29,380 bases of DNA from Candidatus Woesearchaeota archaeon (GCA_964536715.1 CAZHYK010000002.1:1-29380); one strand, 5' to 3'. Shown: positions 25,716-26,496, counted from the stretch's first letter. The notes: generated by a model not told the origin, from the letters alone. Program-made: numbers and translations.

Positions 25716-25979
25716 TTAATTCTTACCTCCCTTTACTTTCCCCCAATTATCCTCTAAAAAAGAAAACTCATAATTTTGAAGATTAATATTTCCAAGAATA
25801 GAAAGATTATCAAAAAGTTCTTTAGGAAGAGTTCTATTTTCGTTAAAATAACTCTTCAATGTTGAATATGGAATGTCAAACCCTCTTTCAATTAGATTTC
25901 TCAGCGAGGGGCAATTTGCATTTTCTAGAACTTCCTTAAAGAATCTTCTTTGTTGTCCTTTGTGAAATTTAACTCTCAT
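25716..25979 (-). CDS. Small HTH-like hypothetical protein ending in NWGKVKGGK
   Basis: Helical 'SLR.L....DIPYSTLK.Y..E.R.LP..LF..L' pattern; its stop abuts the tRNA-Arg 3' end. Confidence 0.65.
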   Translation of the reverse strand: MRVKFHKGQQRRFFKEVLENANCPSLRNLIERGFDIPYSTLKSYFNENRTLPKELFDNLSILGNINLQNYEFSFLEDNWGKVKGGKN

Positions 25980-26073
25980 AATTTTAAATATATTTCAGAG
26001 TTTATAAATTTCACTGCGCAACCATACCATGCAAAACTTTATAAAGGAAAAATTTGATTTAATTGAAACTAAA

Positions 26074-26169
26074 GTTTTCCTAGTTTAGACGACGTGTCAA
26101 GAAAACTTAAGGTTGTCTACGCAGAACGCAGTGGGCTAACTTAAGGGAAAAGTGACGTGTTAGGAAAAC
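26074..26169 (+). ncRNA. Candidate structured RNA / 5' leader of the rpl44e operon
   Basis: Four nested helices: 26074-82/26161-69, 26092-99/26153-60, 26106-11/26140-45, 26115-20/26131-36. G-U pairs work only on the + strand. TATA-like site at about 26038. Confidence 0.45.
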
Positions 26170-26187
26170 CGTAGGTTGTCATACACA

Positions 26188-26496
26188 ATGAAAGTTCCAA
26201 AGAAAACAAAACGATATTGTCCTTATTGTGACAAAGTAACTGAACAGAAGATAAAACAAGTTAGCACCGGAGGAAAGAAAGGTGCACTTACTCGAGGAAC
26301 TAAGATTAGGGCTAAACTTAGAGGTAAAAATAGGGGGATGGGAAATTTAGGAAGATATAGTAAAAAACCGGTTACAAAATTTAAGATGAAAACAAAGACT
26401 ACTAAAAAAGCGGCATTTTTATATACATGTTCTGTTTGTAATAAATCTAAACCTAAATCAAAAGGAATCCGAACAGGAAAATTGGTAATGGAATAA
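26188..26496 (+). CDS. rpl44e: 50S ribosomal protein eL42 (L44e)
   Basis: 'MK.PK....YCP.C', 'KTTKK....Y.C..C.K'. ATG 26188 preferred over TTG 26176. Confidence 0.95.
   Translation: MKVPKKTKRYCPYCDKVTEQKIKQVSTGGKKGALTRGTKIRAKLRGKNRGMGNLGRYSKKPVTKFKMKTKTTKKAAFLYTCSVCNKSKPKSKGIRTGKLVME

What the first reader, a model, noticed from the sequence alone, without database searches (positions are those of the whole stretch)
26074..26190. 96-nt folded RNA candidate with a built-in alternative structure upstream of rpl44e-rps3ae-ndk
Fold 1 is a long interrupted hairpin: GTTTTCCTA/TAGGAAAAC, ACGTGTCA/TGACGTGT, CTTAAG/CTTAAG, GTCTAC/GTGGGC. Four G-U pairs fix the + strand. Fold 2: TAGACGAC (26086-93) pairs with GTTGTCTA (26112-19), excluding two fold-1 helices. 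GACGAC can also pair with a second GTTGTC at 26175-80, next to the start codon. The segment is GC-richer than other intergenic DNA and follows a TATA-like site at about 26038. It lacks 5S, SRP, RNase P, tRNA and C/D hallmarks. Candidate new riboswitch-like leader, r-protein autoregulatory element or independent ncRNA.
Basis: partly seen in the sequence, partly recalled or inferred. Interest (0 to 1): 0.6.

Follow-up and report, generated by a model that had tools for sequence, protein, structure and literature searches.

The report
Mobile hairpin element before rpl44e
The folded stretch in front of the ribosomal-protein gene rpl44e is real, but it is two tandem copies of a small hairpin-forming repeat that is scattered in front of many unrelated genes and tRNAs in tiny archaea (and, surprisingly, also occurs in bacteria and giant-virus-like contigs), not a switch dedicated to this gene.

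Summary
The hairpin exists as described: + strand -32.4 kcal/mol, z -2.35; - strand z -0.17. It lies between a conserved TATA box (26038-26045) and the rpl44e ATG (26188).

It is not an rpl44e-specific riboswitch or autoregulatory site. Of 30 relatives, 27 have the ATG about 21 nt after the TATA box and so appear leaderless. Only 3 carry an insert there.

The 3' half (26144-26186) is one copy of a dispersed module of about 45 nt. The module has an AGGGAAAG box and a hairpin whose top is invariant (GAAAACC-GYA-GGUUKUC) and whose base covaries freely. A second, decayed unit lies 63 nt upstream. Pairing between the two units produces the long hairpin and the "alternative fold".

A covariance-model search found the module in 84 of 151 genera of the family, at 1-17 copies per genome. 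Copies abut start codons of housekeeping genes and tRNA 5' ends, lie antisense in tRNA introns, and lie beside duplicated tRNA ends.

This scan found the same family before on other DNA (e1-2801518 and others). New here: the same core occurs in CPR bacteria, Clostridia, Actinomycetes, Verrucomicrobia and giant-virus-like contigs. Rfam 15 has no match. The way it spreads is unknown. A role in RNA 5'-end processing is not excluded.

The parts
26038..26045 (+). TATA box (TTTATAAA, within AAAACTTTATAAAG) of the rpl44e promoter
   Evidence: Invariant in six aligned relatives. In relatives without the insert the ATG follows about 21 nt later.
26063..26084 (+). Left junction. TTGAAAC..AAAGTTTTCC is a possible decayed duplicate of the gene start ATGAAAGTTCC.
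   Evidence: In the filled/empty-site alignment A5 it lies where relatives have their ATG. The match needs two indels, so it is only suggestive. G001 shows the same pattern (ATAAAATTAAACC against ATGAAAATTCC).
26091..26117 (+). Upstream, decayed unit: hairpin part GACGTGTCAA-GAAAACT-TAA-GGTTGTC. It has no AGGGAAAG box and its loop is changed.
   Evidence: Direct repeat D1 with 26154-26180, 27 nt, 81% identity, period 63. Alignment with other family members.
26106..26145 (+). Central hairpin (CUUAAG..GUCUACGC..GUGGGC..CUUAAG) between the two units
   Evidence: Part of the minimum-free-energy fold. It is kept even when the canonical hairpin is forced. AACTTAAGG is repeated at 26104 and 26138.
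26144..26152 (+). Conserved purine box AGGGAAAAG (family consensus AGGGAAAG)
   Evidence: Nearly invariant in 29 family members. Required by the pattern that recovered more than 119 loci across domains.
26157..26186 (+). Canonical family hairpin P2. The base is GUGU/ACAC plus UA/UA. The invariant top is GAAAACC (26164-70), GUA, GGUUGUC (26174-80), with an A.G mismatch.
   Evidence: Covariance model R1 scores 26127-26192 at 61.2 bits, E 8e-14. Alone it folds at -7.0 kcal/mol. In the whole leader its pairs have probability below 0.6%, because the long hairpin wins by 4.3 kcal/mol.
26075..26169 (+).
26188..26496 (+). rpl44e (eL42). The ATG lies 1 nt after the foot of P2, 7 nt after the core.
   Evidence: Pfam Ribosomal_L44, E 1.7e-4. 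56 of 61 relatives have the ortholog.

Best explanation
The segment is an insertion of two tandem units (63-nt period, the upstream one decayed) of a small dispersed structured element. One unit is about 40-60 nt. It has a purine box AGGGAAAG, a short variable linker, and a hairpin whose top is invariant (GAAAACC-GYA-GGUUKUC, usually with an A.G mismatch) and whose base is free to vary as long as it pairs.

The insertion sits exactly between the rpl44e promoter and the start codon. It turns an ancestrally leaderless mRNA into one with a folded leader of about 115-120 nt. The long hairpin and its alternative folds arise because arms of the two self-complementary units, and the left junction, can pair with each other. 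They are not a conserved switch.

Shown: family membership, tandem structure, covarying hairpin, patchy presence at this site, and multi-copy, variable distribution in relatives.

Inferred: the family behaves as a mobile, largely selfish element. It lands, or survives, where an insert is harmless: at transcript 5' ends (start codons of leaderless genes, tRNA +1), in tRNA introns, and beside tRNA 3' ends, often with a duplicated target. At rpl44e it is tolerated and at most modulates translation. The transposition machinery is unknown.
For: - Most of 30 relatives (27) have the ATG about 21 nt after the TATA box. Only G000, G001 (same genus) and G027 (another genus) have about 125 extra nt, while G003, G005 and G006 of the same genus do not.
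- BLAST of the leader against 400 genomes of the family hits only its 3' half, at 80-90% identity, at many unrelated loci. In G001 the best hit is a different locus, in front of an aRF1 gene.
- A covariance-model census found the element in 84 of 151 genera, at 1-17 copies per genome, with one locus in G000.
- Of 132 instances, 50 have an ORF start within 30 nt. The peak is exactly 5 nt after the core, and the reverse orientation shows no peak. Nine have a tRNA starting 4-6 nt after the core. Seven or eight lie antisense inside tRNA genes at position 36-40. Others are followed by a duplicate of a tRNA 3' end.
- Near-exact 11-mer target duplicates occur in 24 of 132 instances, against 10 of 132 in an offset control.
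- The hairpin base covaries. Mean MFE is -11.4 against -7.9 +/- 0.2 when 3' flanks are swapped. On an 80-sequence cross-domain alignment, 147 cells are changed on both sides against 40 +/- 8 in shuffles (0 of 500 shuffles reach it), and 88.9% of cells are paired (the alignment is fitted to the model).
- G.U pairs outnumber A.C 23 to 7, so the sense strand is the one that folds.
- G000 has a tandem direct repeat. Tandem arrays occur elsewhere too.
- Earlier scan notes reached the same reading on other genomes.
Against: - The 17-nt core and the box are identical from 30%-GC archaea to 70%-GC Actinomycetes and in giant-virus-like contigs. It is single-copy in genomes of 3.3 and 4.1 Mb. That degree of conservation is unusual for a merely selfish repeat and hints at a function or a universal partner.
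- The genes it precedes are strongly biased to highly expressed housekeeping genes, always in sense orientation and at a fixed distance. A functional leader would also give this pattern.
- No transposase or reverse transcriptase is clearly linked to it.
- The target duplication at the G000 site needs indels.
- The only expression evidence is one RNA-library contig of depth 2.
Confidence: 0.7

Rival explanations
1. The unit is a functional RNA module that defines the 5' end of whatever follows it. It would be a processing signal for a conserved endonuclease, or a small ribozyme cutting at its own 3' foot. It would release leaderless mRNAs and mature tRNA or rRNA-fragment 5' ends. The rpl44e copy would then restore a leaderless message.
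For: - AUGs and tRNA +1 positions sit at the same fixed distance (4-6 nt) from the invariant core, directly at the foot of the hairpin.
- One copy lies 14 nt before a 23S rRNA exon in a CPR bacterium.
- The box and core are conserved across domains.
- The genome is mostly leaderless: TATA-like sites occur at -35..-15 in 143 of 282 long ORFs, and SD-like sites in 13%.
- The sense strand is the one that folds.
Against: - No known ribozyme or RNA family matches.
- Nothing downstream of the supposed cut is conserved to hold a substrate.
- An RNA-library contig runs uncut across the junction, 26101-26370 (weak).
- In Curtissbacteria the AUG lies 13-18 nt after the core.
- Antisense copies in tRNA introns, tandem arrays, decayed copies and patchy presence fit a mobile repeat better.
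- In G000 the canonical hairpin is predicted to be out-competed by the long hairpin.
Confidence: 0.12
2. The unit acts on DNA. It would be a binding or cleavage site (three GGAAA-like half-sites, palindromic top) for a recombinase, an HUH-type enzyme or a regulator, and the hairpin would form in single-stranded DNA.
For: - The top is palindromic, and the box resembles the 5' arm.
- Copies occur in both orientations relative to transcription.
- Copies lie beside duplicated tRNA ends in an att-like layout.
- IS200-type Y1 transposase genes are frequent in the family (47 of 151). Genomes carrying the motif are enriched among them, 34 of 47 against 50 of 104.
Against: - The end hairpins of those IS200 copies are unrelated to the motif.
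- G.U pairs exceed A.C 23 to 7, and compensatory changes favour a folded single strand of fixed polarity.
- Duplications vary in length (9-21 nt), unlike those of a single site-specific recombinase.
Confidence: 0.1
3. One reading: a riboswitch-like or ribosomal-protein (eL42/eS1) autoregulatory leader dedicated to the rpl44e-rps3ae-ndk operon, switching between two folds.
For: - It is a structured, GC-richer, strand-specific leader directly upstream of the operon.
- Alternative pairings exist.
- The AUG is partly paired in the predicted minimum-free-energy fold.
Against: - It is absent from this operon in 27 of 30 relatives.
- The conserved part precedes dozens of unrelated genes and tRNAs.
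- The 5' arm that makes the 'switch' is not conserved in G001 or G027.
- There is no Rfam match.
Confidence: 0.03
4. An independent small RNA gene (C/D, H/ACA, SRP-like or other) that happens to lie upstream of rpl44e.
For: - It has a stable fold of about 96 nt.
- SRP RNA was not found in this 81%-complete genome.
Against: - There are no box motifs and no Rfam match.
- There is no terminator or separate promoter between it and the ATG (sequence).
- The RNA-library contig joins it to the coding sequence.
- Its conserved part is a multi-copy leader element elsewhere.
Confidence: 0.03

Closest known systems
Dispersed mini-element of Pacearchaeota-type DPANN archaea noted earlier in this scan (e1-2801518; also e1-3371097, e1-1472246, e1-4727970, e1-4540227)
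   Same: - e1-2801518 shares 7 of 7 short words with a family member.
- The contexts are the same: flush with start codons of housekeeping genes, beside tRNAs, and in tRNA introns.
- It also has a hairpin with a covarying stem and target duplication.
   Different: - Here there are two tandem units whose mutual pairing makes a long hairpin.
- Those notes are AI notes, and only partly re-tested here.
Bacterial MITE-like small repeats: Correia/NEMIS, RPE, ERIC, RUP (review PMC2229807; PMC3184786)
   Same: - They are small non-autonomous repeats whose transcripts form long stem-loops.
- They are found intergenically and in genes.
- They are co-transcribed with neighbouring genes and sometimes affect the mRNA.
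- Filled and empty sites occur between relatives.
   Different: - The units are shorter (about 40-60 nt against 100-200 bp).
- There are no terminal inverted repeats or TA ends. The conserved part is the top of one hairpin plus a 5' box.
- Target duplicates are long and variable in length.
- Placement at start codons and tRNA +1 is exact.
- Distribution across domains is not known for those families.
Transposed tRNA-intron families of Thermoproteales (Fujishima et al. 2010, as summarised in PMC4090602)
   Same: Near-identical short sequences are found as introns in different tRNA genes, implying intron gain by transposition at the DNA level, by an unknown mechanism. Here 7-8 of 132 copies are tRNA introns at position 36-40.
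   Different: - Most copies here are not introns but 5' leaders.
- The intron copies are antisense to the leader orientation.
- The family also occurs in bacteria, which lack this splicing system.
Ribosomal-protein autoregulatory leaders and riboswitches (Rfam families)
   Same: It is a structured 5' leader of a ribosomal-protein operon with possible alternative folds.
   Different: - It is not conserved with the operon.
- There is no ligand-related or protein-related gene association.
- There is no match to any Rfam 15 model.

Membership tests
Dispersed AGGGAAAG-box / GAAAACC-GYA-GGUUKUC hairpin element (this scan's DPANN mini-element) | Purine box followed by a hairpin with the invariant top | tested here: met
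   Box at 26144-26152 and core at 26164-26180. R1 scores it at 61.2 bits, E 8e-14.
Dispersed AGGGAAAG-box / GAAAACC-GYA-GGUUKUC hairpin element (this scan's DPANN mini-element) | Base of the hairpin pairs, with a sequence free to vary between copies | tested here: met
   G000 has GUGU/ACAC plus UA/UA. Family-wide covariation.
Dispersed AGGGAAAG-box / GAAAACC-GYA-GGUUKUC hairpin element (this scan's DPANN mini-element) | Foot of the hairpin abuts the start codon or tRNA +1, in sense orientation | tested here: met
   The ATG is 7 nt after the core and 1 nt after the last pair. The family mode is 5 nt.
Dispersed AGGGAAAG-box / GAAAACC-GYA-GGUUKUC hairpin element (this scan's DPANN mini-element) | Presence/absence polymorphism at orthologous sites, and variable copy number | tested here: met
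   3 of 30 rpl44e sites are filled. Copy number is 0-17 per genome.
Dispersed AGGGAAAG-box / GAAAACC-GYA-GGUUKUC hairpin element (this scan's DPANN mini-element) | Duplication of the target flanking the insert | tested here: inconclusive
   At G000 the duplicate is decayed and needs indels. It is clear in other copies, for example L072, L065, L083 and L089.
Riboswitch | Conserved aptamer upstream of functionally related genes | tested here: not met
   The downstream genes are unrelated in function and include tRNAs. There is no Rfam match.
Ribosomal-protein autoregulatory leader | Conserved with the operon of the regulating protein in related species | tested here: not met
   27 of 30 relatives lack any leader at rpl44e.
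Ribosomal-protein autoregulatory leader | Mimics the protein's rRNA binding site and binds the protein | not testable with these tools
   Only noted that AACCGUAGG also occurs in 16S helix 45, which is expected by chance at about p 0.15 (own estimate).
MITE (Correia/RPE type) | Terminal inverted repeats at both ends of the unit | tested here: not met
   The unit has a 5' box and one internal hairpin. Its ends are not inverted repeats of each other.
MITE (Correia/RPE type) | Autonomous partner element encoding a matching transposase | tested here: inconclusive
   RVT_1 and Y1_Tnp genes are present in part of the family but are not clearly linked. The IS200 ends are unrelated.
Archaeal tRNA intron (bulge-helix-bulge type) | Lies at an intron position in a tRNA gene | tested here: not met
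   The G000 copy is not in a tRNA. 7-8 other copies are, in antisense orientation.
Known self-cleaving ribozyme classes | Match to a class consensus (hammerhead, twister, pistol, hatchet, HDV-like and others) | tested here: not met
   cmscan at E <= 10 on the leader, and at gathering threshold on 14 loci, gives nothing over the motif.
Known self-cleaving ribozyme classes | Site-specific cleavage | not testable with these tools
   Only contigs were available. One RNA-library contig spans the junction uncut (weak).
5S, SRP, RNase P, tRNA, C/D or H/ACA RNA | Covariance-model match | tested here: not met
   5S and RNase P RNA are on contig C9.

The most novel reading that the evidence does not exclude
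The 40-45-nt unit (AGGGAAAG box plus hairpin with invariant top) is a functional RNA module shared by archaea, bacteria and giant-virus-like genomes. It would create or mark the exact 5' end of the downstream RNA, either as a processing signal for a universal nuclease or as a new small ribozyme that cuts at its own 3' foot. It would make leaderless mRNAs and mature tRNA 5' ends. Its mobility would then be that of a portable 'clean 5'-end' cassette.
Probability: 0.1. Interest if true: 0.9.

Novelty: new variant of a known kind. Interest (0 to 1): 0.5.

Why it matters
For this window, it removes a tempting false lead. The folded rpl44e leader is not a new riboswitch or ribosomal-protein sensor.

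For the family, a repeat this small has three unusual properties:
- It targets or survives exactly at start codons and tRNA ends.
- It doubles as tRNA intron material.
- It keeps an identical 17-nt core from DPANN archaea to high-GC Actinomycetes and giant-virus-like contigs.

It bears on three questions: how leaderless genes tolerate or acquire leaders, how archaeal tRNA introns arise, and whether a still unknown universal partner (enzyme or RNA activity) recognises the core.

If the processing or ribozyme reading were true, it would also be a useful tool for making defined RNA 5' ends.

Tried and rejected
- **Standard RNA.** Rfam gives no match on the leader, the window or 14 other loci. 5S and RNase P RNA are elsewhere. 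SRP RNA was not found in this 81%-complete genome, and the motif lacks SRP features.
- **RNAalifold on G000 and G001.** The MAFFT alignment is not structure-consistent, so this was uninformative.
- **Shine-Dalgarno supply by the core.** The duplex with the 16S 3' end is -7.0 kcal/mol, and 10% of shuffles do as well. Not significant.
- **Link to reverse transcriptase.** The counts (RT+/motif+, RT+/motif-, RT-/motif+, RT-/motif-) are 35/21/49/46, and several high-copy genomes have none.
- **Link to IS200/IS605 TnpA.** There is a modest enrichment, but it is confounded, and the IS ends are unrelated hairpins.
- **Neighbouring genes in bacteria.** These include gyrA, POR, mnmG, an amylase, a TetR-family protein, a histidine kinase and fumarase, with no mobile-element protein.
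- **Cultured phages and plasmids.** No match.
- **Full-text search for the core string.** No paper holds it.
- **RNA evidence.** X20 covers only rps3ae, and X24 laid nothing. Uncovered parts say nothing.
- **GTTTTCCTA as the 3' arm of a truncated third unit.** It matches 9 of 12 positions but is off the 63-nt period. Left open beside the target-duplicate reading.
- **Purine-triplex or mirror-repeat idea for the box.** It fits sister repeats (L207, L036) but not the main family. Not pursued.

Full report
**Observation**

The window is an AT-rich archaeal contig. It carries a 16S-tRNA-Ala-23S operon and six tRNAs, and belongs to a 0.52-Mb genome that is 81% complete.

The energy is -32.4 kcal/mol, z -2.35, and 5 of 200 dinucleotide shuffles do as well. 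The complementary strand does not fold better than chance (z -0.17). The segment is 43% GC against 20-31% in other spacers. It follows a TATA box at 26038-26045. Downstream lie L44e, S3Ae and NDK genes.

**Not a gene-specific leader**

I fetched the rpl44e locus from 30 relatives and read the upstream regions. In 27 of them the same promoter (AAAACTTTATAAAG) lies about 21 nt before the ATG, which is a leaderless layout. Only G000, G001 (same genus) and G027 (another genus) have about 125 nt in between. Three other species of the same genus, with equally similar L44e, have the empty site (alignment A5). In G001 and G027 the 5' parts of the insert are different sequences. A riboswitch or an eL42/eS1 autoregulatory site would be expected to travel with the operon. 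This does not.

**What the conserved part is**

BLAST of the leader against 400 genomes of the family hit only its 3' half (about 26136-26185). The hits were 80-90% identical, at many loci and often several per genome. In G001 the best hit is in front of an aRF1 gene, not rpl44e.

The shared module has an AGGGAAAG box, a short linker, and a hairpin. The top of the hairpin is invariant: GAAAACC-GYA-GGUUKUC. In the 114 instances counted, position 3 pairs as A.G in 83 and as A-U in 29. The base of the hairpin differs from copy to copy but stays paired.

- Swapping the 3' flanks between copies raises the mean folding energy from -11.4 to -7.9 +/- 0.2 kcal/mol.
- On an 80-sequence alignment, 7 of 12 pairs show compensatory changes. 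147 cells are changed on both sides, against 40 +/- 8 in shuffles, and no shuffle of 500 reaches the observed value. This alignment is fitted to the model, so it leans towards the structure.
- G.U pairs outnumber A.C 23 to 7, so the strand I call sense is the one that folds.

**Why G000 shows a long hairpin**

The leader holds two tandem units. 26091-26117 and 26154-26180 are a 27-nt direct repeat, 81% identical, with a 63-nt period. The upstream unit has lost the box and changed its loop.

GACGUGU is nearly self-complementary through G.U pairs, and CUUAAG is a palindrome present in both units. The left junction also carries GUUUUCCUA, which is complementary to the 5' arm of unit 2.

In the predicted ensemble this long hairpin out-competes the canonical family hairpin: -32.4 against -28.1 kcal/mol, with pair probabilities below 0.6%. 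The long hairpin is therefore a local accident of tandem copies, not a conserved feature.

The left junction, TTGAAAC..AAAGTTTTCC, lies where relatives have their ATG and resembles the gene start ATGAAAGTTCC. G001 shows ATAAAATTAAACC against ATGAAAATTCC. This is a possible decayed target duplication, but it needs indels.

**Behaviour of the family**

A covariance model (R1) finds the module in 84 of 151 genera of the family, with 1 to 17 copies per genome. G000 has one locus.

Among 132 distinct instances:
- 50 have an ORF start within 30 nt downstream, with a sharp mode 5 nt after the core. The reverse orientation shows no such peak.
- Nine have a tRNA gene starting 4-6 nt after the core.
- Seven or eight lie inside tRNA genes at the canonical intron position, but antisense.
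- Others lie just after a tRNA and are followed by a duplicate of that tRNA's T-loop-to-3'-end.

The ORFs include EF-1a, EF-2, S3Ae, S8e, S10, S17e, TFB, RpoP and CDC48. In bacteria they include S12, S13, IF-1, GroES, GroEL and Lon (read from the N-termini on my own knowledge).

Near-exact 11-mer duplicates of the downstream flank occur upstream of 24 of 132 copies, against 10 of 132 for an offset control. Tandem arrays with periods of 38-63 nt are common. All this is the signature of a small mobile or at least proliferating repeat.

Earlier agents of this scan reached that reading on other genomes. One of their windows shares the sequence family.

Besides Pacearchaeota, Woesearchaeota, Nanoarchaeota, Aenigmatarchaeota and Micrarchaeota, it included Curtissbacteria, Peregrinibacteria/Peribacteria, Clostridia, Actinomycetes, Verrucomicrobiae, Omnitrophota and Dormibacterota.

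- In high-GC hosts the base of the hairpin is GC-rich, while the box and top are unchanged.
- An Actinomycete genome (3.3 Mb) and a Verrucomicrobia genome (4.1 Mb) each hold a single copy. One Clostridia MAG holds four, one of them upstream of gyrA and another upstream of a POR gene; a copy in a different Clostridia MAG lies upstream of mnmG.
- IMG/VR contigs labelled as giant-virus MAGs, and one with a Pox_A32-type packaging ATPase, carry compact 38-42-nt units. Some are in tandem arrays next to AAAATTGA motifs, which I know as the mimivirus early promoter.
- One copy lies in a 23S rRNA insertion of a Peregrinibacterium, and one inside an HSP70 gene of a GVMAG contig.
- Rfam 15, the phage and plasmid collections, and a full-text search for the core string gave nothing.

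**Mechanism**

Shown: family membership, tandem structure, a covarying sense-strand hairpin, patchy and multi-copy distribution, and exact placement at gene starts.

Inferred: the element proliferates into places where an insert is harmless, and at rpl44e it is a tolerated 5' leader.

No reverse transcriptase or IS200-type transposase is convincingly linked to it. The core is not significantly Shine-Dalgarno-like.

The exact common distance of AUGs and tRNA +1 from the invariant core, together with the cross-domain conservation, keeps alive a more interesting reading. In that reading the unit is a 5'-end-defining processing signal or a 3'-cleaving ribozyme. I give that about 0.1. One RNA-library contig of depth 2 runs uncut from 26101 into the coding sequence. 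That weakly supports transcription of the leader and weakly argues against efficient cleavage.

**Comparison with known systems**

The closest described systems are the bacterial MITE-like repeats (Correia, RPE, ERIC; PMC2229807) and the transposed tRNA-intron families of Thermoproteales (PMC4090602). The element differs from both in several ways:
- its size;
- the lack of terminal inverted repeats;
- long duplications of variable length;
- precise placement at start codons and tRNA +1;
- its spread across domains.

**Verdict**

The feature is a new variant of a known kind (a dispersed small structured repeat) and was already met by this scan. Interest is moderate, mainly because of the unexplained universal core.

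Noticed in passing
window 26010-26026: TTCACTGCGCAACCATA lies just upstream of the rpl44e TATA box and faces the divergent 87-aa ORF (25716-25979, no Pfam hit). It is conserved across several genera. It is a candidate operator or second promoter element.
   Followed up: partly
G000 whole genome: No SRP RNA (RF01857) was found in this 81%-complete genome. 5S rRNA and a sub-threshold RNase P RNA (82.4 bits against a cut-off of 84) lie together on contig C9.
   Followed up: no
L140:4916-5000: In a Peregrinibacteria MAG the motif lies inside a 23S rRNA gene insertion. It is 14 nt before the exon sequence AAGTTCCGACC and about 120 nt after a group-I-intron-like ATATAGTCC element.
   Followed up: no
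L196:10575-10625: In a contig labelled as a giant-virus MAG, the motif interrupts an HSP70 gene and ends in TTTTCTTTTAG (polypyrimidine plus AG). This looks like the 3' end of an intron.
   Followed up: partly
L143:1-260; G151:C15:25-252; G066:C3:414-586; L193:403-518; L208:5-112: There are tandem arrays of 3-4 units with periods of 55 nt (archaea) or 38-42 nt (virus-like contigs). The L143 array ends 5 nt before tRNA-Thr.
   Followed up: partly
L207, L203, L198; L036:133-195: Sister repeats have the same architecture but a different sequence, for example AAGGAGGGGUCAUAGGGGAACC-UUGG-UUCCCC. In these the purine tail is a mirror-like copy of the 5' arm of the hairpin.
   Followed up: no
L216-L223 (G070, G172, G067, G086): Near-identical IS200-type elements (136-aa TnpA) have their own conserved end hairpins. 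Y1_Tnp genes occur in 47 of 151 genera of this small-genome family.
   Followed up: partly
L035:1000-1323: G001's second copy of the element ends with the same CATATACA-ATG junction as the rpl44e copies, but precedes an aRF1 (eRF1 domain 1) gene.
   Followed up: partly
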